Positions 1 through 9,592 of a DNA stretch of 24,712 nt are shown here, piece by piece. Every line of letters starts with the position of its first letter. The stretch's first letter is position 1. Origin of the DNA: a virus (Duplodnaviria > Heunggongvirae > Uroviricota > Caudoviricetes); IMG/VR virus record IMGVR_UViG_2778261459_000007, positions 1-24,712 of that record. One strand, written 5' to 3'. The notes beneath the pieces were generated by a model. The model ran no database searches. It was not told the DNA's origin and worked only from the letters and a program-made list of their open reading frames with translations. A program made the position numbers and the translations under genes.

Positions 1-1158
1 ATGCTCACCGTTAAGCAGATTGAAGCAGCAAAGCCGAAAGAAAAACCATACCGCCTACTCGATGGTAATGGCCTGTACCTTTATGTCCCTGTATCCGGAA
101 AAAAGGTCTGGCAGCTTCGCTACAAGATTGACGGTAAGGAGAAAATCCTGACTGTCGGAAAATATCCGCTTATGACTTTGCAGGAGGCAAGGGATAAAGC
201 ATGGACTGCGAGGAAAGACATCTGGGTTGGTATAGATCCGGTAAAAGCGAAAAAGGCTTCGTCTAACAACAATTCCTTTAGCGCCATTTACAAGGAATGG
301 TACGAGCACAAGAAGCAAGTCTGGTCTGTAGGGTATGCGACTGAACTTGCAAAAATGTTTGATGACGACATTTTACCTATCATCGGCGGCCTTGAAATTC
401 AGGATATTGAGCCGATGCAACTGCTGGAAGTAATCCGCAGATTTGAAGATCGCGGTGCAATGGAACGAGCCAATAAAGCCCGAAGAAGATGCGGCGAGGT
501 TTTCCGTTACGCTATTGTCACCGGAAGGGCTAAATATAACCCGGCACCTGACCTTGCTGACGCCATGAAGGGATACCGCAAGAAGAACTTCCCGTTTCTT
601 CCTGCAGACCAGATCCCGGCATTTAACAAAGCACTGGCAACATTTTCAGGAAGCATCGTATCGCTCATTGCGACCAAAGTTTTACGCTACACAGCCCTCA
701 GAACAAAAGAGCTTCGTTCCATGCTATGGAAGAACGTCGATTTTGAAAACAGGATTATCACCATCGACGCCAATGTGATGAAGGGACGCAAAATTCATGT
801 GGTTCCTATGTCAGACCAGGTAGTTGAACTTCTCACTACGCTAAGCTCAATCACTAAACCAGTGTCAGAGTTTGTTTTTGCCGGGCGCAACGATAAGAAG
901 AAGCCAATCTGCGAGAACGCGGTATTGCTTGTGATCAAACAAATCGGCTATGAGGGTCTGGAAAGCGGTCACGGATTCAGGCATGAATTCAGCACAATTA
1001 TGAACGAGCACGAATGGCCTGCTGACGCTATTGAAGTGCAACTGGCACATGCCAACGGCGGATCTGTGCGTGGGATTTACAACCATGCTCAGTATCTCGA
1101 TAAACGCAGAGAAATGATGCAGTGGTGGGCGGACTGGCTTGATGAAAAGGTGGAGTGA
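1..1158 (+). CDS. int: Tyrosine integrase, P4-family (site-specific recombinase)
   Basis: 385-codon ORF starting at window base 1. N-terminal arm-type DNA-binding motif (LTVKQIEAAKPKEKPYRL..DGNGLYL) typical of P4-like integrases; C-terminal catalytic region with H-x-x-R (HGFRHEF) and a terminal tyrosine region (GIYNHAQY). Convergent with the acyltransferase, as int is at the conversion-gene end of P22/Sf6-type genomes. Confidence 0.9.
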   Translation: MLTVKQIEAAKPKEKPYRLLDGNGLYLYVPVSGKKVWQLRYKIDGKEKILTVGKYPLMTLQEARDKAWTARKDIWVGIDPVKAKKASSNNNSFSAIYKEWYEHKKQVWSVGYATELAKMFDDDILPIIGGLEIQDIEPMQLLEVIRRFEDRGAMERANKARRRCGEVFRYAIVTGRAKYNPAPDLADAMKGYRKKNFPFLPADQIPAFNKALATFSGSIVSLIATKVLRYTALRTKELRSMLWKNVDFENRIITIDANVMKGRKIHVVPMSDQVVELLTTLSSITKPVSEFVFAGRNDKKKPICENAVLLVIKQIGYEGLESGHGFRHEFSTIMNEHEWPADAIEVQLAHANGGSVRGIYNHAQYLDKRREMMQWWADWLDEKVE

Positions 1159-1284
1159 TCCGCCTTAACCACTATCGAAGAGTACAAAGCCTTGCAATCC
1201 AGCGCAAAGCTTTGTGTGTTTCAGTTTTGTCTAACGTTACAGAAGCATCCAGAACGCATATCATTGATGCCACAAAAATACAGA
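1159..1284. other. Candidate attP-containing intergenic region between convergent int and acyltransferase
   Basis: In lambda, P22 and Sf6 the attP core lies just 3' of int, between int and the conversion/tailspike end. Here int (+) and the acyltransferase (-) converge on this 126-bp gap. I could not recognise a tRNA-derived core (no T-loop-like GGTTCGAnTCC motif), so this is positional only. Confidence 0.3.
1184..1231 (+). terminator. Candidate intrinsic terminator downstream of int
   Basis: Inverted repeat ACAAAGC (1184-1190) / GCTTTGT (1209-1215), plus the palindrome CAAAGCTTTG, followed by a T-rich run GTGTTTCAGTTTTGT. The loop is large (18 nt), so the hairpin is weak. Confidence 0.3.
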
Positions 1285-2334
1285 CTAAGATGATTGGTAC
1301 ACATTTTTTCTTGTATACCTGTCCTTAAGTCTTAGGAATGGCAACTCAAAATACTTAAACGACAGTGCAGAAATGGCGATAGTAAGAGAAATCTTGGTTA
1401 CATCCACCATTGGTCCAGAGATCCAAAGTAAATGCCCTCTGTACTGAAGAGAATCAACGATTTGAATTGCAAGCGGATGCCATATATACAATCCATAACT
1501 AATCTTTCCAATGTAAATTAATGGAGCAATAGTTAGAAACTTTGCTTTTATAACACCAGAAGCGATTACACCAATGAGACCTGCAAACATCATGTTTGAT
1601 GAAAGATAAAGGCTCTGGTTAGCAATTTCAGGACCAGTATGCCAGCCATATATTAGCGCACCGAATTTAACTACCGCGATAAACCAGAATATCCCTACAG
1701 TTAAGAGCAAACACGACACAATCATCATGACACGTTGTTTAACGGAAATAACAGCAATTATTGCCCCTATAAGAAGTGTGTCCATAGCTGAGAACAGCGG
1801 GGCAAACGATACTATTTGTGTATATTCTGCAAGATAAAATCGTGATGCGATCGCTACGCAAGAAAGTGCAACCGCAGATATAAAAATCCACTTTCTGTTA
1901 CAGAAGAAAACAACTAGTGGCCATAGTAAATAAAATTGTTCTTCTACAGCAAGTGACCATGTATGACCAAATTCCTGCCCTGGAACATACAGGAAGCCAT
2001 TCCATGCCATCGTGTAATTCTGTATATAGAAAATATAGTAAAACCAATTCTGCGTATCTTTTATTCCAAGATATGAGCAGTAAACGAATACAACTAATAT
2101 ATATAAATAATATAGCGGAAATATACGTAGACTTCTTCTTATATAGAAATTGGAAAAGAAGTTATTATCTTTCTTTGATTCTATCAATATCCTTGTAATC
2201 AAGAAACCAGAAAGCACAAAGAAAAAAGAAACACCAAGCCACCCCATTCCGAACCCAGGGATGCCTAAGTGATACAGGATAACACTAATAACACTGAACG
2301 CTCTTAGTCCATCAAGTTGCTGAATATGCTTCAT
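1285..2334 (-). CDS. Acyltransferase family 3 membrane protein, O-antigen acetyltransferase-like (lysogenic conversion, Oac-like)
   Basis: 349-aa ORF, very hydrophobic and multi-pass (MKHIQQLDGLRAFSVISVILYHLG... with the N-terminal GLR..H motif of Acyltransferase_3/OafA-type enzymes). Markedly AT-rich versus its flanks, roughly 35 percent versus 50 percent GC by eye. It sits between tailspike and int, exactly where Sf6 carries oac. Confidence 0.85.
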   Translation of the reverse strand: MKHIQQLDGLRAFSVISVILYHLGIPGFGMGWLGVSFFFVLSGFLITRILIESKKDNNFFSNFYIRRSLRIFPLYYLYILVVFVYCSYLGIKDTQNWFYYIFYIQNYTMAWNGFLYVPGQEFGHTWSLAVEEQFYLLWPLVVFFCNRKWIFISAVALSCVAIASRFYLAEYTQIVSFAPLFSAMDTLLIGAIIAVISVKQRVMMIVSCLLLTVGIFWFIAVVKFGALIYGWHTGPEIANQSLYLSSNMMFAGLIGVIASGVIKAKFLTIAPLIYIGKISYGLYIWHPLAIQIVDSLQYRGHLLWISGPMVDVTKISLTIAISALSFKYFELPFLRLKDRYTRKNVYQSS

Positions 2335-2365
2335 TTCATTATTTTAGAAAAAGTTAAAGGAGTGA

Positions 2366-2393
2366 AGTTTACCACACATCCAGCAACCCGCAA
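2366..2393 (-). promoter_or_regulatory. Candidate sigma70 promoter for the acyltransferase gene
   Basis: On the minus strand: TTGCGG (-35, 2393..2388), 16-nt spacer, TGgTAAACT (extended -10, 2374..2366), about 30 nt upstream of the ATG at 2334. Overlaps the tailspike stop codon. Confidence 0.3.
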
Positions 2394-2394
2394 C

Positions 2395-4434
2395 TTAACC
2401 TATCTGCTGCAAAACGCTTATCCCAGCACTCAAGCACTTGAGTAAAGTTGCTCTGTATTGCCCAAGCGAGTAGTTGACGGCTCCTGACGTAAGAATGTTG
2501 TCTGAGGAGTATGCGATGGTAGTTCCTGTATTGTTGGTCGTAACAATTACATCTCGCCCATATGGAGCTCCATAAATGTGTCCGATAGTTACGTTATCTG
2601 CCATGACTCTAATCTGGGTGGCTGGGTGGTAGTCTGTTAAATCAATATCACCACTGACATTTATGTCCCTATACTTAGGTAACTTACCGTCAAACCCATA
2701 AACAGTTGCCGCATTATCAAGATATTTGTGAACTGAGTCGCTTTCCTGATATTCATTTCCGCTGCATATGGCTGAGCCAGTAATGATGAAACCAGACGTT
2801 CTTTTAATACCGTTGTCATTACCAAGGAATGCAAATGAACTTCCTGATACGCTACCTTCATGAACAGTAACACCAAAGAGTCTGTCGCTATCATCATCAA
2901 TTTTGATGGCAAATGTGCAATTAGAGACAGTACCTCTTTGAATATAAAGTGATTGCTTAGAAGGTGTTGCTGAGATCATCTGGCACTCACCAAAGTGGAT
3001 ATGAGAACCAGTAAAATACCCAATATCAATACTCCCACCAGGAGCCAGCCAAATGCATTCACTGAACGTAATATATGCTCCGTTACTCATCATAAAGTAG
3101 GGCACATCTTTGCGTTCCATTGATAGCTTAGTTGCCAGATATGCAGCGTCAACAGGTATAAATGTACACTCACTGAAAGACAGGCGATAAGAGTTTCCAA
3201 GATTCATTGCTGTTGAAATGTAATAGAATCTGTCGTTATCAGTAACCCCATCACCGACAGGCCTTGCAACTTCAAAATGACACTGGCTCCATGAGAAGTT
3301 CCAGCAATTATTAATGTTAAACATATATGCCGTTAGTTCGAAATGGCAACCATTAAAATATACATAGTTTGAGTCTGTATTGCATGTTACTGCGAAGTTT
3401 GTTGAGTTACCGCATTGTAAAACGCTACAGTTGTTAAAGTATGTGTCTTGTATATATCCAAGCTCAAGCCCCTGATTAGGGAAGTGCTGGATATTTACAC
3501 CGCTGACAACCCCCATCCAACCTACATTTGCAAGATGCAGACCTACATCGCATTGACCATCTACACCCCAGATAGCGAAATCACGTAGGTTAAGCCCAAA
3601 ACAGTATTTATCCGGCGCAATCGAAAGAGTTCTACCATTGGCAACTTTAGAGTGGAACGTTGTTCCGCGAACTGGAGATGGTGAATGTGCTGTACTCGAT
3701 ACGTCTCGTAAACCCTGACCACCTTCGCCATAAAGAGAAGGTGCATAATCAGCAACGACGGTATCAGAAATTATATAATCACCAGATGGTTGAAAGACTC
3801 CAGCATTTCTTGTTTTGGCTACATTTATAGCCGATTGCCAAGCTGCATAATCTTGGCTTTGTGATAATGATGTAACAAACGGATACACCATTTGTGCGGC
3901 TGTTAATGTTGAGAAGATTTCACTAAGAGGGTGATCATTTCCGTCTCCAATAGCACCAAAATCTTTTAAGTTTAATACATCTTTATTTTTATCGTGCTGT
4001 GTTCTCTGAACAGCACCAGTATATGGCTGGTGAACGAATACTTTTGCATCATTTACTAACGGTGGCTGACTATCACTTAGAAGTTCTGATCTTAGCTGAT
4101 CAGGATCATACTTCAGAACATTCGGAAAATAGAACTGCTGCGCACCGTATGCATCATAAACAGCCATAGAATGGCCTTGCACAGTTACGAACTTTGCAAT
4201 CTGTCCGTTATATACCGGGTAACCAGCAGCGTTAATGATGATTGGTTGCGAAACAGGAACGTGAGATCCATCTTCGTTTTCTACATAAACCTGAATCTGG
4301 TTTTCAGGATTTACCGGATCAGTGTCAATTTTACCGATATAAATTTTGCCATTGGCTACAGTTTTAAAAGAACGAGCCATAGTGAAGAATTGAGAAGGCA
4401 TGCTTACCACAACATTTGCGGTGATATCTGACAT
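2395..4434 (-). CDS. Tailspike protein (P22 gp9 / Sf6 gp14 family): conserved N-terminal head-binding domain plus beta-helix receptor-binding domain
   Basis: N-terminus [59 protein letters not shown]... matches the P22-like tailspike head-binding domain. The remainder is N/S/T/G-rich, consistent with a right-handed beta-helix. Start chosen at ATG 4434, preceded by GGAG; the ORF-track start at 4482 adds 16 non-conserved residues. Confidence 0.9.
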
Positions 4435-4555
4435 TTCATTGCTCCAGACGAATGATATGATGCAATCATGATGTGATTGCATACCGAAATGGTACTATTG
4501 AGTATTTATCCAGTAGGTTACGATGCCATTCCACCCAACTGGTGAGGCATCAAGG
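4435..4555. promoter_or_regulatory. Divergent promoter/operator region between tailspike and mnt
   Basis: 121-bp gap between divergent start codons. Contains inverted repeat ATGCAATC (4460-4467) / GATTGCAT (4475-4482), the 8-bp palindrome ATCATGAT (4465-4472), and a possible plus-strand promoter TTGCAT (4477-4482) - 17 nt - GAGTAT (4500-4505). Confidence 0.35.
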
Positions 4556-4816
4556 ATGTACAGCAAATACGACGAGGCGCAGTTTCACTTGAGACTTCCG
4601 CATGAACTCCACGCGAAAATTAAACATCGCGCGAAGATGAATAACAGGTCGCTGAACTCAGAGATAATTGCAGCGATTGAAGAATCATTGGATAAACAAA
4701 GCTCTGCATCAGTTTACATTGACGATGCAGAGCGTATGGCAGAACAACAATCGGATATGGTTAAGAAAATTGTCTTTGATACGCTCAGAGATTTATATAA
4801 AAAAGACAGCAACTAA
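4556..4816 (+). CDS. mnt: Mnt-like ribbon-helix-helix repressor (Arc/MetJ fold)
   Basis: Translation ...DEAQFHLRLPHELHAKIKHRAKMNNRSLNSEIIAAIEESLDK...DAERMAEQQSDMVKKIVFDTLRDLYKK aligns along its length with P22 Mnt as I recall it (DPHFNFRMPMEVREKLKFRAEANGRSMNSELLQIVQDALSK...NDAERLADEQSELVKKMVFDTLKDLYKK). Start set at ATG 4556, preceded by AAGGA; the ORF-track start at 4523 gives an unaligned N-terminal extension. Confidence 0.85.
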   Translation: MYSKYDEAQFHLRLPHELHAKIKHRAKMNNRSLNSEIIAAIEESLDKQSSASVYIDDAERMAEQQSDMVKKIVFDTLRDLYKKDSN

Positions 4817-4833
4817 CCATCCGTGGCTTTCCG

Positions 4834-7137
4834 TTACTTCTGGTTATCATCACTGTTCATCCAGTACATGATGCCTAGCCTTGATATGGTTTTCTTATCT
4901 GATTCTGGAAGTGAGTTGTAAAACGAGCGCCAAGCAGAAGAGCGTCTTACAGTTGTATCAACGATGCTTTCTGGTGCTTGTTTTACTGCCAGCCTTGCTG
5001 CTTTCTGGAATTCTGGTGAGCTAATTAGCTTTTCTGCAGATTCAATTGATTCAGCGCCGCCCATCGCCCTGATTTTGCTGGCGACTTTTGCCCCAATTTC
5101 TGACCCAGCAACAGCACCTACTGCACTGAACGGTCCTGACACAGTTGAACCAACCGCAGTGCCAATGCGTTGGGCATGGTTAGCAACAAATTCATTTGCC
5201 GCAGTGACGCGATTAAACCGTTTGACGAACTCGTTTAGTCTTCCTGTAGTTATCTCGTAAGATTTTGCGTCTTTGATAGCCTTTGCGACCTTATATACAT
5301 CGTTCAGACCTGACATAGTCTCTTTTGGTAAATGTCGGGCAAGATTGCGCATCTGCCCGTTTGCTAACATGTTTTGATACCAGTCAGCAAACCCTGCAGG
5401 ATTAAAATCAGCGCCACGTTTTCCGTTCGAAAGCATATCCCGAAGACCTGTTCCCAGTAGCTCGGTTCTTAGCTTCCTGGACGGCGTGTTTTGCATCAAT
5501 TCACGAAATCCTTTGGCATCGCCTTTCGACATTGCCTGTAGTGCTGTAGTTGCTTTGCGAGAAACATCACCGTTCAGCGTTCTGCCAGTTAGATTAATCA
5601 TTTGCTCTTCCATGCTTTTTCGCATCTGAACAAGCCTCTGAGCAACTTCAAAATCACGTAATGCATTTGTCTCTGACAGCGCCGCCTTTTGATCATCGGC
5701 GAGCGAACCGTAAAGCCTCGATAAAGCAGCGCGATCAGCATCTTTATATGGTCCAGAATTCTTATGAAGTGCATCACCAACAAGTCGTCGTTGCTTATTG
5801 AGATTTGCATAAGTTAATGCGCCGTTCTTGCCTGGATTAACTGCCCGAAAGACTCTCTTTTCAATAGGGTCAAGGTTTTTCATCCCGCCAAGATCTTCTG
5901 CCACCTGTTTGAGCATTGACCTTGTTGATGGCGCATCAATTTTTGCACCTGCAGGCATCGCCTTTTCAACATTGCGATAAAGCTGGTCGCTTCGTTTCAT
6001 CAGCGCAGACATTCTTCCATTGACCGTATCAATAAACTTGTCGCTCATACCAAGAGCATCTTTTGCACCGGAAACGTGATCAATTATCTCCCCCGCGCCC
6101 TGTGCTAGCTGCCTGATTGCTTCATTTTCCTGCACCTGTAGAGCAGAACCCGCACGGGACTTGATTGCTTGCTCAACTGCCTTGTATTGCTCGTTCCCGG
6201 AAAAGTGTGAAGGGAGTAATGAATCAACATTAAGCCTTTCAGCAGACTCCAGAACTTCAGCCTGAGGATTGATATCTAGTTCATCAAGCGATGAAGCGAG
6301 ATTTGGCCTTTTTTGTGCTGCTACTGTGCGAACGACTTCCTCTGGGTTCCTCGTCGCAGGCGTCATTGGTACACCTTGTGCTACTCTTGCCTCTGCGGCA
6401 TGAACCGCAGGATTTGTTGCTGCAGCGGCATCACCGGAGAATTGTGATGTTTCTGTTGGCGCAGTGGTCGCTCTCTGTGCAGATGTTTTATTGCCACTAA
6501 TTATATTTGATGCACCACGAACACCACGGGTAACGCCATTTATCAGGCCATGCGTAGCAATGTTAAGTCCGGCATTAATAGCGGCATTTTCGGCAAAATC
6601 ACCCCGTTGATTCGCCGCGTCAGCGAGAGAACCAATGACCATGTTTCCAGCTACACCTGCTCCAGGAACAAGATAACCGCCTATTGACTCTCCAGCTTGC
6701 GCATACGGATCCGTTGGCCGGTTAACTGGTCTATATACTTCATCAAGAATCTTTGGTCCATCAAAACTCTGAGATGCGGCATTAATGAGACTCGCCCCCC
6801 CCTGAAGAACGTCAAAAGGAATATTTACAAATCCTCTTACCGCCTGCTCGGCAATTTGACCTACGCTTTGCCCACCTGTTAGCCATTCTCCTGCACGCTG
6901 CATAAGTGATTTGTCTTGCTGAATGGTATCAGGAGATTGCCCTACTTCCTGCTGTTCTGTCTGCATTGAAGGCAATGGATAGGCATCATAGAAAGCTTGC
7001 TTAGCCTGATCTGCATTTTCTCCGGCTTGCGGGGCCACGACTTCATTGAAGTATTGCTCCTGAGCCTGCGCTTTTTGTTCTGGTGCTAACGCCTGATACT
7101 GTGGAGAGGCGATAACATCTTTCCATGCTTTAGCCAT
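4834..7137 (-). CDS. Ejection (E) protein, P22 gp16-like
   Basis: 767-aa ORF, third of three consecutive ejection-protein genes in the conserved gp7-gp20-gp16 order. Its start overlaps the upstream stop (TAATG). Ala/Gly/Gln-rich composition typical of ejection proteins. Call rests on position and composition, not sequence recall. Confidence 0.75.
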
Positions 7138-8432
7138 TAATCACCCCATAGTGAAGAAAAGTTACTGCCAGTAGTAGATTGTTGCCCTGGCATATTCTGA
7201 ACCGGCTCCTGATAATCAAACTGTTTTTTAACAGTGCTCAACTTGCTTTCAAGCTGATTTCTAATCTTTCCGATAGAGTCACGAAAAGCCTTTTCACTCA
7301 TTTTGGGGCTTAGGGCACCAACCGCATCGGATAATTTTTTACCCTCAGCATCTGAAAGAGCACCCATCCCCTTAAGGGACTGCACCATAGGAAGGAATGT
7401 TTGAGCTTTAAAGGTGTCGAGCCTTGCTTCAAAGTTAGCCGCATCAGAGCCAGGAACTGTCGGAAACGCTGAGCGAATTCCTACTGCTTTTGAAAGGCCG
7501 GGGCTTTGCTCTATCTCGTTGAGAGAATCAAGCGCAGTGCTGAACGTATCAACTGCACCCTGAGCGGCGGCCTGCCTGTCAGCGCGGGCTATGTCAGCCT
7601 TTTGCCGAACATCTGCCTGTTTCTGTTTTAGCTCTTCAAGCTTTAACTGATTGCTTTCTCTGGCTATCTGTCTGTCCAGAGCCTTTTCTTGTAATTCTGC
7701 TCTTTGTATTTCTCGGGAAAGAGCAGCATTCTGTGCGCTGATGTTCTGTCCACGTATCTGGATGTCCTGACCTCGAGCTATTAGTGCTTCTCCGGCCTGA
7801 TTGCTGCGGATTGTCTCTGCCAGTCTGCCTCGGTCAATCTCACGACCAGCCATCTTGTCCTGAACATTGAAGTAATCAATCGGACCAAGAGCAGCCATTC
7901 CAAGGTGATCAACAAACTCACCAAATCCTGAAGGGTTCTGCTGATACATCTGAGCAACGCTGTTAGGGTCAACACCGACGCGAGTCAGTTCCTTGGCGTT
8001 GTTTTGCAGCCATGATTGCATTGCTTCTGGAGACGATGACGCAAGGCGTGCGCCAGCCGCTAAGGTGCCGATAGAATTACGCTGCTCTTCATCAATGAAT
8101 CCCATGCCTTTACGAACGGATTCAATCTGGTCTGGATATTGAGTAGCCAACTGACGCAAAGCACCGCGATCACCAGACGCATAAGCATTAGCGTATGCCT
8201 GCTGAAATTCTTTCTGCCGCTGAGCCTGCTTTTCCTGCTGAAACACCCCAGCAATACCTGAAAGGCCTTGCAAAGCAGTCAGCCCAACATTGTTAGCGCC
8301 TGAACGCTCAATATCATTGTTCTGCCTGATAAGCTGAAGCGTATTGCTGATGTCATTTACGCTCGGAGCGTTTGAGTTGACGCCGCCGATACCAGCCAAC
8401 AATCCGCCATTTGATCCTTGCCAAGTAGCCAT
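7137..8432 (-). CDS. Ejection (E) protein, P22 gp20-like
   Basis: 431-aa ORF between the gp7-like and gp16-like genes; Q/A-rich central coiled-coil-like region. Positional and compositional match to P22 gp20 / Sf6 gp12. Confidence 0.75.
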
Positions 8433-8441
8433 GATTACCCC

Positions 8442-9134
8442 TTAAAACAACGAGCCAAGCAATCCGATACCAGCACCAATGCCAGCGCCCCAAGGTGTTG
8501 ATGTTCCCAAAAGGCTGGCAAGACCTGCACCGGCAATCGCACCAGACGTTCCGCCACTAATTGCTGTCTGAAGACTTGATGGTTTGTTGGCATTAGCAGC
8601 GGCAAGAGCTGCGCTTTGCTGTGCAATGCTGCTCATGTTGTTGGCGTACGTCTGCCCGGCGTTTGCCTGACCTTGCAGAGCACCAAGCCCAACGTTTGCC
8701 AGATTGTTGTAATTGCTCATCTGGTTTGACAACCAAGACTGACCGAGAGTCGGCGCGATCGTAGCCAGTTGATTGCTTGTGGCTGTCGAACCAAGCCCTC
8801 CCGTAGCCTCCGCAGCAGCAAGACTCTGGTAACGCGCCTGACCTGCAAGGTCTTTATACTGCTGAGAGTTGTAATACTGATTAAGTGCCTGCCCCTGACC
8901 TTCTAAACTGGAAAGGTTCTGAAGCTGGTTAACATACTGCTCCGCAAGAGGCGTGAACGGAGCAAGGTTTTTCATGATCGTCTGCCACTGCTGATTTTGC
9001 AGGTCTGCTGCATACTTCTGAGCTTCTGCGGCATACTTTGCGCTTTTATCAGAGCTACCACCTTTCCCGCCTTTTTCAGGGCACCAAGGTTCCTCGCCGC
9101 GCAGTTTTCTGCCCAGCTTAAATGCATATAACAT
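8442..9134 (-). CDS. Ejection (E) protein, P22 gp7-like
   Basis: 230-aa ORF. N-terminus MLYAFKLGRKLRGEEP..EKGGKGGSSDKSAKYAAEAQKYAADLQNQQ and the Gly/Ala-rich C-terminus match P22 gp7 (229 aa) as recalled. Confidence 0.85.
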   Translation of the reverse strand: MLYAFKLGRKLRGEEPWCPEKGGKGGSSDKSAKYAAEAQKYAADLQNQQWQTIMKNLAPFTPLAEQYVNQLQNLSSLEGQGQALNQYYNSQQYKDLAGQARYQSLAAAEATGGLGSTATSNQLATIAPTLGQSWLSNQMSNYNNLANVGLGALQGQANAGQTYANNMSSIAQQSAALAAANANKPSSLQTAISGGTSGAIAGAGLASLLGTSTPWGAGIGAGIGLLGSLF

Positions 9135-9136
9135 GG

Positions 9137-9592
9137 CTATCTCCCGTGATTCAGGAAGTCGATTAGTTCTTCGCGTGTGGCGCTGTAAAACGTCACGTCA
9201 TCCACGCCTTTGAAGTATTTTTTGATGGTTCCTACACGATTAAGGCCAATCATTGCGCAGTACATCTGACCGTGGCGGAATTTGCGTGCAGCGAACGATG
9301 TGACGCACTGAACGGTGGTGTTAGTCAGAATGTATCGCCAGAACGCCAGCCCGATTTCCTTGCTGAATCCGCGAATCTCTGGCAGGTACATGGCGTGGCA
9401 ATCGAATGTCAGCGGCTGAATCTCCTGATAGTAAACAATGCCGCCGAACTGCCCGTGCACGTTCACCTCAAAGTAACGGCAATCAGGTTTGTAGTCGTAT
9501 CCATCACCGTTGTTGCTCCCGGCAATAATGTCAGGGTGATTTCCGACTGCTTCGATCAGGTCAATGTTTCGCGTTGGTTTGAACTGAATCAT
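9137..9592 (-). CDS. P22 gp14-like head/DNA-stabilisation (ejection-associated) protein
   Basis: 151-aa ORF between the tail needle and gp7-like genes, the position of gp14 in P22/Sf6. Call is mainly by synteny. Confidence 0.7.
   Translation of the reverse strand: MIQFKPTRNIDLIEAVGNHPDIIAGSNNGDGYDYKPDCRYFEVNVHGQFGGIVYYQEIQPLTFDCHAMYLPEIRGFSKEIGLAFWRYILTNTTVQCVTSFAARKFRHGQMYCAMIGLNRVGTIKKYFKGVDDVTFYSATREELIDFLNHGR

What the first reader, a model, noticed from the sequence alone, without database searches (positions are those of the whole stretch)
2395..4434. Chimeric tailspike: conserved P22/Sf6-type head-binding domain fused to a divergent beta-helix receptor domain
Residues 1-~115 are the conserved capsid-binding domain. 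The sequence then switches, around …[18 protein letters not shown]…, to an N/G/S/T-rich domain with lower GC that I cannot confidently match to P22 (667 aa) or Sf6 (623 aa) tailspike from memory; the protein is 679 aa. Tailspike receptor domains are the most frequently exchanged module in P22-like phages and define host O-antigen specificity, so this may encode a depolymerase of uncharacterised specificity.
Basis: partly seen in the sequence, partly recalled or inferred. Interest (0 to 1): 0.55.

Follow-up and report, generated by a model that had tools for sequence, protein, structure and literature searches.

The report
P22-type tailspike with swapped receptor domain
This is an ordinary but experimentally uncharacterised phage tailspike gene whose sugar-cutting receptor module travels with a neighbouring sugar-acetylating gene between different phage types, and probably targets the E. 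coli O5 / Salmonella O28 surface antigen.

Summary

No solved or characterised tailspike matches beyond residue about 240, so the "known enzyme" refutation fails. One detail is wrong: GC does not drop inside the gene (41.0% vs 41.3%).

The protein is not new to databases. Residues 48-679 are identical to an NCBI cluster of 68 E. coli and Salmonella proteins, named only "phage head-binding domain-containing protein". The same receptor module sits on at least five anchor types.

It moves as one DNA block with the downstream acyltransferase, even into an epsilon15-type prophage of Salmonella Halle.

All eight complete E. coli genomes that carry it have the O5-family O-antigen cluster (35 of 5426 genomes overall). 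A Salmonella carrier is serovar Vitkin (O:28), and O28 Pomona-type clusters are homologous to O5. I therefore predict an O5/O28-type O-antigen endoglycosidase, with D330, E366 and E388 (plus H386) as the candidate active site.

Verdict: new member of a known kind, modest interest.

The parts
2395..4434 (-). Tailspike gene, 679 codons plus stop
   Evidence: ORF and translation. It sits after the P22-type ejection genes gp7, gp20 and gp16, the needle, gp10 and gp4.
4442..4445 (-). Shine-Dalgarno GGAG, 7 nt upstream of the ATG at 4434
   Evidence: Read directly from the sequence. It supports the 679-aa start over the 695-aa start.
4096..4434 (-). Head-binding (virion anchor) domain, aa 1-113
   Evidence: PF09008 E 3.3e-66. 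Sf6 gp14 E 1.2e-74 and P22 gp9 E 2.5e-49. 88-89% identical to Sf6 gp14N and 70-74% to P22.
4051..4095 (-). Linker, aa 114-128 (…[20 protein letters not shown]); exchange junction
   Evidence: Nucleotide similarity to other P22-like tailspikes ends here. Other anchor classes join at aa 107-129. pLDDT is below 50.
3919..4050 (-). Conserved cap motif, aa 129-172 ([37 protein letters not shown])
   Evidence: Shared with Sf6 gp14 (to aa 172), phi297 gp27 and LKA1 gp49 and with every anchor class.
2680..3918 (-). Right-handed parallel beta-helix body, aa 173 to about 585
3271..3450 (-). Candidate active-site rungs, aa 329-388 (Q329, D330, N356, H364, E366, H386, E388; repeated CHFE motif)
   Evidence: Q329, D330, N356, H386 and E388 are the only polar residues invariant in 28 relatives down to about 20% identity, and E366 is at least 90% conserved. 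This is the most conserved segment among close relatives. The catalytic role is inferred.
2935..3234 (-). Variable patch, aa 401-500
   Evidence: Relatives that are 99-100% identical over aa 48-295 drop to 65-70% here (P0003, P0004, P0005). This shows recombination inside the domain.
2398..2679 (-). C-terminal beta-rich part, aa 586-679
   Evidence: All-beta in the model, pLDDT about 90. A role in trimer assembly is inferred by analogy and was not tested.
1285..2334 (-). Acyl_transf_3 membrane acyltransferase (349 aa), 60 nt downstream of the tailspike; probable O-antigen O-acetylase
   Evidence: PF01757 E 3e-24. PHROG 3333 'O-acetyltransferase' and PHROG 6705 'O-antigen acetylase'. GC 36.9%. 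It is found next to this tailspike in every context seen.
1337..4029 (-). Two-gene cassette (receptor domain plus acyltransferase) shared as one colinear block with other prophages
   Evidence: Window 1307-4354 equals L004 at 93.8% over 3050 nt. Window 1337-4029 equals the Salmonella Halle epsilon15-type prophage L014 at 82.8% over 2700 nt, and the acyltransferases are 88.8% identical in protein.

Best explanation
The gene encodes the tailspike of a P22/Sf6-like temperate podovirus.

Shown:
- Residues 1-113 are the standard head-binding domain that docks the spike on the tail hub.
- Residues about 130-679 are a separately inherited receptor module with a right-handed parallel beta-helix fold.
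- This module is exchanged among at least five kinds of phage anchor.
- It is physically linked to a downstream membrane acyltransferase as one transferable block.

Inferred:
- The spike is a trimer that binds the host O-antigen and cuts it by hydrolysis. This lets the virion descend to the outer membrane.
- The active site probably involves D330, E366 and E388, with H386, Q329 and N356.
- The substrate is most likely the E. coli O5-type / Salmonella O28 (Pomona-type) O-antigen. From my own knowledge, this is a Qui3NAc-, ribofuranose-, Gal- and GalNAc-containing repeat.
- After lysogeny the linked acyltransferase O-acetylates that same glycan, so the lysogen no longer adsorbs the phage. Both genes are specific for the same sugar, which would explain why they travel together.
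For: Identity and position:
- Intact ORF with a Shine-Dalgarno site.
- P22-type late genes lie upstream.
- PF09008 E 3e-66, with Sf6 and P22 N-domain matches.

Fold:
- AlphaFold2 mean pLDDT 83, and above 90 over most of aa 150-679.
- BFVD best match is the E. coli phage ECBP5 tail protein, TM 0.89, 31% identity.

Modularity. The same body occurs on several anchors:
- 91% identity on an epsilon15/phiV10-type anchor;
- 85% on a PF18668 TSP1/gp66-type anchor;
- about 51% in G7C-like phages and in Kuttervirus SS9.

Cassette:
- Colinear DNA blocks.
- An acyltransferase is adjacent in E. coli, E. fergusonii and Salmonella contexts.

Substrate:
- 8 of 8 complete E. coli genomes with the module carry the O5-family wzx/wzy plus dTDP-Qui3NAc genes. 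Only 35 of 5426 genomes are O5-family.
- The cluster at 90% identity or more includes Salmonella serovar Vitkin, whose formula is 28:l,v:e,n,x (PMC7815585, PMC6300517).
- The O5-family Wzy has 77-79% Salmonella homologues.
- The S. Pomona O28 cluster is syntenic with the E. coli 101-1 and O114 clusters. Its wzx and wzy lengths (1257 and 1317 bp) equal those in NT1F10 (PMC2905691).
- A 55% relative sits in an O114:H49 strain. The O114 antigen also contains ribose and an acylated 3-amino-quinovose (PMC2905691, PMC7685785).
- Linking prophage tailspikes to the host serogroup is an established method for Lederberg- and Uetakeviruses (PMC10408124).

Active site: the invariant polar residues.
Against: - No activity, trimer state or substrate was measured.
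- The eight E. coli carriers are one clone. Their O-cluster proteins and chromosome coordinates are identical, so they count as about one independent event.
- Their tailspike is only 88-89% identical to this one overall and 68-75% over aa 173-295, so specificity could differ.
- I could not O-type any host of the identical domain (P0002 contigs).
- I did not establish whether serovar Vitkin has the Pomona-type or the Dakar-type O28. That serovar Halle is O:28 rests on my memory only.
- A 57% relative lies in an O174-family strain, so the wider family is not tied to one antigen.
- The Pfam pectate-lyase-like match is below threshold (22.8 against 27 bits).
- I had no model coordinates, so I could not check that the conserved residues face one groove.
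Confidence: 0.8

Rival explanations
1. The receptor module is a depolymerase for a different surface glycan (a K-type capsule, colanic acid or enterobacterial common antigen), not the O-antigen. It may act as a lyase rather than a hydrolase.
For: The nearest solved relatives by fold include lyases and epimerases: LKA1 gp49 O-polysaccharide lyase, K5 and K1 lyases, AlgE4 and RbmB. The conserved His-x-Glu pairs resemble base-catalysed chemistry. PMC10408124 notes tailspike subtypes spread over many serogroups that probably target other receptors. A 57% relative sits in an O174-family host.
Against: Carriers of close copies are O5-family E. coli and O:28 Salmonella, which have homologous O-clusters. 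Characterised P22-like and epsilon15-like prophage tailspikes are O-antigen specific (PMC10408124). The linked gene belongs to the O-antigen acetylase families. From my own knowledge, the O5 repeat lacks uronic acid, which a lyase needs.
Confidence: 0.1
2. It is an O-antigen tailspike, but for an antigen other than O5/O28-type. The O5 association belongs only to the 88% variant in the pig clone.
For: The two proteins differ most in the first rungs of the helix (68-75% identity over aa 173-295). Other close relatives differ in aa 401-500 (65-70%). This shows that sub-domain patches are swapped, perhaps to retune specificity. The E. coli hosts of the identical domain could not be typed.
Against: The 90%-identity cluster that holds the identical domain also holds an O:28 Salmonella. 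The conserved core, aa 296-400, is 90-100% identical among these relatives. The same acyltransferase (85-91% identity) accompanies all variants.
Confidence: 0.25
3. The module only binds, or removes acetyl groups, rather than cutting the chain.
For: Some tailspikes are esterases (G7C gp63.1, cited in PMC8432352). No catalytic test was done.
Against: Esterase tailspikes have an SGNH fold, not a beta-helix (my own knowledge), and here the fold is a beta-helix. Acidic residues that stay invariant down to about 20% identity point to catalysis.
Confidence: 0.05
4. It is a decaying gene in a cryptic prophage with no current function.
For: In strain NT1F10 the neighbouring acyltransferase is split by IS1, so such regions do decay.
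Against: In this window the ORF is intact, with a Shine-Dalgarno site and a complete set of P22-type virion genes. Identical copies occur in many isolates.
Confidence: 0.04

Closest known systems
Shigella phage Sf6 tailspike gp14 (endorhamnosidase; PDB 7sg7, 7ukj, 2vbk)
   Same: The head-binding domain is 88-89% identical and the cap motif aligns to aa 172. Same overall build (anchor, beta-helix, C-terminal part). Same gene order, with an O-antigen acetylase gene after the tailspike (oac in Sf6, from my own knowledge).
   Different: No detectable sequence similarity in the helix body. Fold-level similarity only, 14-16% identity. Different predicted substrate.
Phage P22 gp9 and HK620 gp9 tailspikes
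   Different: Unrelated helix-body sequence, 10-12% identity.
Pseudomonas phage phi297 gp27 and LKA1 gp49 tailspikes (PDB 4ru5, 4ru4)
   Different: Sequence similarity stops after the cap. Different anchor. From my own knowledge, LKA1 gp49 is described as a lyase acting on a uronic-acid O-antigen.
Epsilon15/phiV10-type (Uetakevirus) prophage tailspikes of 766-776 aa in E. coli and Salmonella Halle (P0015-P0022)
   Same: Same receptor module, 85-91% identical from aa 129 to the end. Same downstream acyltransferase, 88.8% identical, in one colinear DNA block.
   Different: The N-terminal 215-225 residues are an epsilon15-type anchor, 76-82% identical to epsilon15, phiV10 and TL-2011b, instead of the P22 head-binding domain.
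Tailspikes of G7C-like phages (FSL SP-076, Jgk1, PE007) and Kuttervirus SS9/SS3
   Same: Receptor module homologous over aa 107-678, 49-54% identical.
   Different: Long multi-domain anchors from lytic phages. The identity is too low to assume the same substrate. FSL SP-076 was isolated on S. Dublin and carries two spikes (PMC3728262).
Phage-borne O-antigen acetylases (Sf6 Oac type, Acyl_transf_3)
   Same: The neighbouring gene has the same Pfam family, a similar size (349 aa) and the same position after the tailspike.
   Different: At most 32% identical to any acyltransferase in sequenced phages. The target sugar is unknown.

Membership tests
P22-like (Lederbergvirus-type) tailspike | N-terminal head-binding domain (Pfam PF09008) | tested here: met
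   E 3.3e-66, full-length match to residues 1-113. Matches to Sf6 and P22 structures.
P22-like (Lederbergvirus-type) tailspike | Central right-handed parallel beta-helix | tested here: met
P22-like (Lederbergvirus-type) tailspike | Gene lies at the end of a P22-type late operon, after the ejection proteins | tested here: met
   P22 gp7, Inj_translocase, needle knob, gp10, gp4, coat and portal families lie upstream.
P22-like (Lederbergvirus-type) tailspike | Homotrimer attached to the tail hub | not testable with these tools
   Only a monomer model could be made.
P22-like (Lederbergvirus-type) tailspike | Endoglycosidase activity on host O-antigen | not testable with these tools
   Indirect only: invariant D330 and E388 with near-invariant E366, and host O-type association.
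Sf6 gp14 endorhamnosidase (same enzyme) | Homologous receptor or catalytic domain | tested here: not met
   The alignment ends at aa 172. The rest scores -3 bits.
P22 gp9 endorhamnosidase (same enzyme) | Homologous receptor or catalytic domain | tested here: not met
   The alignment ends at aa 117.
Pfam PF12708 pectate-lyase-3 / rhamnogalacturonase-like domain | Score at or above the gathering threshold (27 bits) | tested here: not met
   22.8 bits, covering only aa 194-239. Some relatives pass (P0022 at 30.7 bits, P0023 at 41.6 bits), so the relationship is distant and not excluded.
phi297 gp27 / LKA1 gp49 tailspike group | Sequence homology across the helix body | tested here: inconclusive
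O5 / O28(Pomona-type)-specific receptor-binding subtype (proposed here) | Carriers of close copies have that O-antigen cluster | tested here: inconclusive
   8 of 8 complete E. coli carriers are O5-family against a 35/5426 background, but they are one clone. One Salmonella carrier is O:28 (PMC7815585). Hosts of the identical domain were not typed.
Phage O-antigen acetylase (Acyl_transf_3), for the neighbouring gene | AT3 membrane domain, with the gene adjacent to the tailspike | tested here: met
   PF01757 E 3e-24 over aa 5-324. PHROGs 3333 and 6705. Its activity on O-antigen was not tested.

The most novel reading that the evidence does not exclude
The receptor module would found an uncharacterised glycoside-hydrolase group. 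Only 49 clusters at 50% identity match it among 1.84 billion representatives, and none has a solved structure. It would cleave a ribofuranose/Qui3NAc-containing O-antigen (E. coli O5 / Salmonella O28) using a D330/E366/E388 (plus His) site. It would move between phage genera and bacterial genera as a two-gene 'recognise and then disguise' cassette with its cognate O-acetylase.
Probability: 0.4. Interest if true: 0.45.

Novelty: new member of a known kind. Interest (0 to 1): 0.33.

Why it matters
Tailspike receptor modules set phage host range. They are used as serogroup-specific reagents, typing probes and anti-virulence enzymes. The published catalogue that links E. coli prophage tailspikes to serogroups (PMC10408124) does not list O5 or O114 among its assigned subtypes, so a tested O5/O28 enzyme would fill a gap. 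[quoted passage not shown] Beyond that, the gene follows a well-known pattern.

Tried and rejected
- I first thought the integrase next to the acyltransferase meant an unintegrated phage genome. I rejected this because an O114:H49 prophage at tRNA-Arg has the same order, int then conversion gene then tailspike.
- I considered using the published Kuttervirus subtype table to assign a substrate through phage SS9. It names only the SS9 TSP4-7 (O:21) subtype. I could not show that the 815-aa SS9 homologue is that protein, and the supplements held nothing. I dropped this lead.
- NCBIfam gave no family for the tailspike.
- Literature searches for Jgk1, PE007, SeKF_64, SS9, serovar Halle and an E. 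coli O5 tailspike found nothing useful.
- The promoter and terminator scan showed nothing above the shuffled expectation.
- No tRNA genes were found.
- I tested whether the whole family follows ribofuranose-containing antigens. A 57% relative in an O174-family strain argues against extending the prediction beyond close relatives.
- I could not reach the O-antigen cluster of hosts that carry the identical domain, because flanks are limited to 10 kb.
- I could not inspect model coordinates, so the geometry of the proposed site is untested.

Full report
**1. The observation**

The ORF list shows one long reading frame on the minus strand from 4482 to 2395.

The 4434 start is the real one:
- GGAG lies 7 nt upstream of it, and nothing similar precedes the ATG at 4482.
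- P22 and Sf6 tailspikes align from their first residues.
- One database entry (P0001) uses the longer 695-aa call, which looks like an annotation slip.

Residues 1-113 match Pfam Head_binding over its full length (E 3.3e-66). They are 88-89% identical to the Sf6 domain and 70-74% identical to the P22 domain.

**2. The junction**

- The Pfam match ends at residue 113.
- In 5,426 complete E. coli genomes, 1,103 match the gene. All but eight of them match only nt about 1690-2040 of the query, which is window about 4085-4434, or residues 1 to about 115.
- Proteins that share the C-terminal module but carry other N-termini start to align at residues 107-129.

Similarity to Sf6 runs on to residue 172. 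This is because a short cap motif ([18 protein letters not shown]) is common to many tailspikes.

The head-binding part is 41.0% GC and the receptor part 41.3-41.7%. The whole gene and the next gene (36.9%) are below the 49.4% of the rest of the window.

**3. What the C-terminal module is**

A model built on 42 homologues has mean pLDDT 83. Most of residues 150-679 score above 90, and the low values are confined to the N-terminus and the linker.

Among predicted viral structures the best match is an uncharacterised tail protein of E. coli phage ECBP5 (TM 0.89, 31% identity).

At sequence level, a profile of the module finds only the cap of phi297 gp27 and LKA1 gp49 in the PDB. So no solved structure represents the helix body.

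The body is also a narrow family. Only 49 clusters at 50% identity match it at E ≤ 1e-3 among 1.84 billion representatives, and only 13 match at E ≤ 1e-30.

**4. Is it a known protein?**

It is not characterised, but it is not new to databases either.
- The best hit is 99.6% identical (P0001).
- P0002 represents 68 sequences from E. coli and Salmonella and is annotated only as 'phage head-binding domain-containing protein'. It is 100% identical over residues 48-679 and differs only in residues 1-47.
- In 50,697 phage records, nothing exceeds about 54% identity in the receptor module.
- I found no paper on any close relative.

**5. Modularity**

The same module is attached to several anchors:
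- an epsilon15/phiV10-type anchor (766-776 aa proteins; module 85-91% identical; anchor 76-82% identical to epsilon15, phiV10 and TL-2011b);
- a PF18668 TSP1/gp66-type N-terminus (module 85% identical);
- G7C-like phages such as FSL SP-076 (about 51%);
- Kuttervirus SS9 (52%).

Exchange also happens inside the module. P0003, P0004 and P0005 are 99-100% identical over residues 48-295 but only 65-70% over residues 401-500. The pig-strain variant is 68-75% identical over residues 173-295 and 89-94% after that. Residues 296-400 are the most conserved part.

**6. The linked acyltransferase**

Sixty nucleotides downstream lies a 349-aa Acyl_transf_3 protein. It falls in the phage O-acetyltransferase and O-antigen acetylase PHROGs. 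It is at most 32% identical to anything in sequenced phages.

It accompanies this tailspike in every context I examined:
- the eight pig E. coli genomes, which are the only complete genomes that have either gene;
- an E. coli draft and an E. fergusonii chromosome;
- an epsilon15-type prophage of Salmonella serovar Halle.

The DNA alignments are colinear across both genes. The match is 93.8% over 3,050 nt to the E. coli draft. To the Salmonella prophage it is 82.8% over 2,700 nt, starting at about residue 136 of the tailspike.

The unit of exchange is therefore the receptor module plus the acyltransferase. O-antigen modification genes behind the tailspike are known in these phage genera (PMC10408124).

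**7. Likely substrate (inference)**

- All eight complete E. coli genomes with the module carry an 'O5 family' wzx/wzy cluster with the dTDP-Qui3NAc genes. That wzy is present in only 35 of 5,426 genomes. The eight are one clone, so this is about one independent event, with a prior of roughly 0.6%.
- The 90%-identity cluster also contains Salmonella members. One is named serovar Vitkin, formula 28:l,v:e,n,x (PMC7815585, PMC6300517). The epsilon15-type copy is from serovar Halle, which I recall as O:28 but could not verify.
- The O5-family Wzy has 77-79% identical Salmonella homologues.
- A published comparison shows the S. Pomona O28 cluster to be syntenic with the E. coli 101-1 and O114 clusters. 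Its wzx and wzy are 1257 and 1317 bp, the same lengths as in the O5-family cluster here (PMC2905691).
- A 55% relative sits in an O114:H49 strain. That antigen also contains ribose and an acylated 3-amino-quinovose (PMC2905691, PMC7685785).
- Against over-extension, a 57% relative lies in an O174-family strain.

I put the O5/O28-type assignment at about 0.5-0.55.

**8. Likely mechanism (inference)**

By analogy with P22, Sf6 and HK620, the spike should be a trimer that binds and hydrolyses the O-chain.

In an alignment of 28 relatives down to about 20% identity, the only invariant polar residues are Q329, D330, N356, H386 and E388. E366 is at least 90% conserved. H364/E366 and H386/E388 occupy the same position of a repeated CHFE motif on successive rungs. 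These are the residues to mutate first.

I could not check their geometry, the trimer state or any activity.

**9. Verdict**

It is a new, uncharacterised member of a very well-known kind of protein. Two things are added here: a testable substrate prediction, and the observation that the receptor module and its acetylase move together across phage and host genera.

Noticed in passing
window 4294-4434 (aa 1-47 of the tailspike): The first 47 residues are only 62% identical to P0002, while residues 48-679 are 100% identical. This points to a second recombination point inside the head-binding domain itself.
   Followed up: partly
window 1098-1153: The last 56 nt of the integrase gene match (95-96%) a spot just past the prophage end near dacD/sbmC in L004 (13637-13692) and L006. 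This may be a remnant of an attachment-site core.
   Followed up: no
L007 2676-4001 (E. coli O114:H49 strain 90-9280): A prophage at tRNA-Arg encodes its own 'O-antigen polymerase' between the integrase and a 55%-identical tailspike. Here the conversion gene is a Wzy instead of an acyltransferase.
   Followed up: no
L003 24119-24913 (E. coli NT1F10 O5-family cluster): An unannotated 264-aa membrane ORF with an NDxxD-like motif lies next to a HAD-type hydrolase. It corresponds in position and size to wbuO of S. Pomona O28 (PMC2905691). It may belong to the ribofuranose donor pathway rather than being an acyltransferase.
   Followed up: no
window 4523-4816 (+): A 97-aa Arc/Mnt-type repressor gene (PF03869, PF11423) lies between the ejection gene and the tailspike. 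The window has no antirepressor gene, unlike the O114 prophage, which has ant.
   Followed up: no
window 4834-7137 (-): The 767-aa protein in the gp16 ejection-protein position has no Pfam hit at E ≤ 1e-5. Its counterparts in L004 and L006 hit PF26808, so this ejection protein is divergent.
   Followed up: no
L002 4132-5940 (E. coli NT1F10): In this pig strain the tailspike-linked acyltransferase is split by an IS1 insertion. The sister strains keep it intact.
   Followed up: partly
L009 2467-4359 (E. coli ET846, O174-family): A 57% relative of the receptor module on an epsilon15-type anchor is paired with a different, 630-aa acyltransferase that is only 33% identical over its N-terminal part. 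The tailspike-plus-acyltransferase pairing recurs even when both partners differ.
   Followed up: partly
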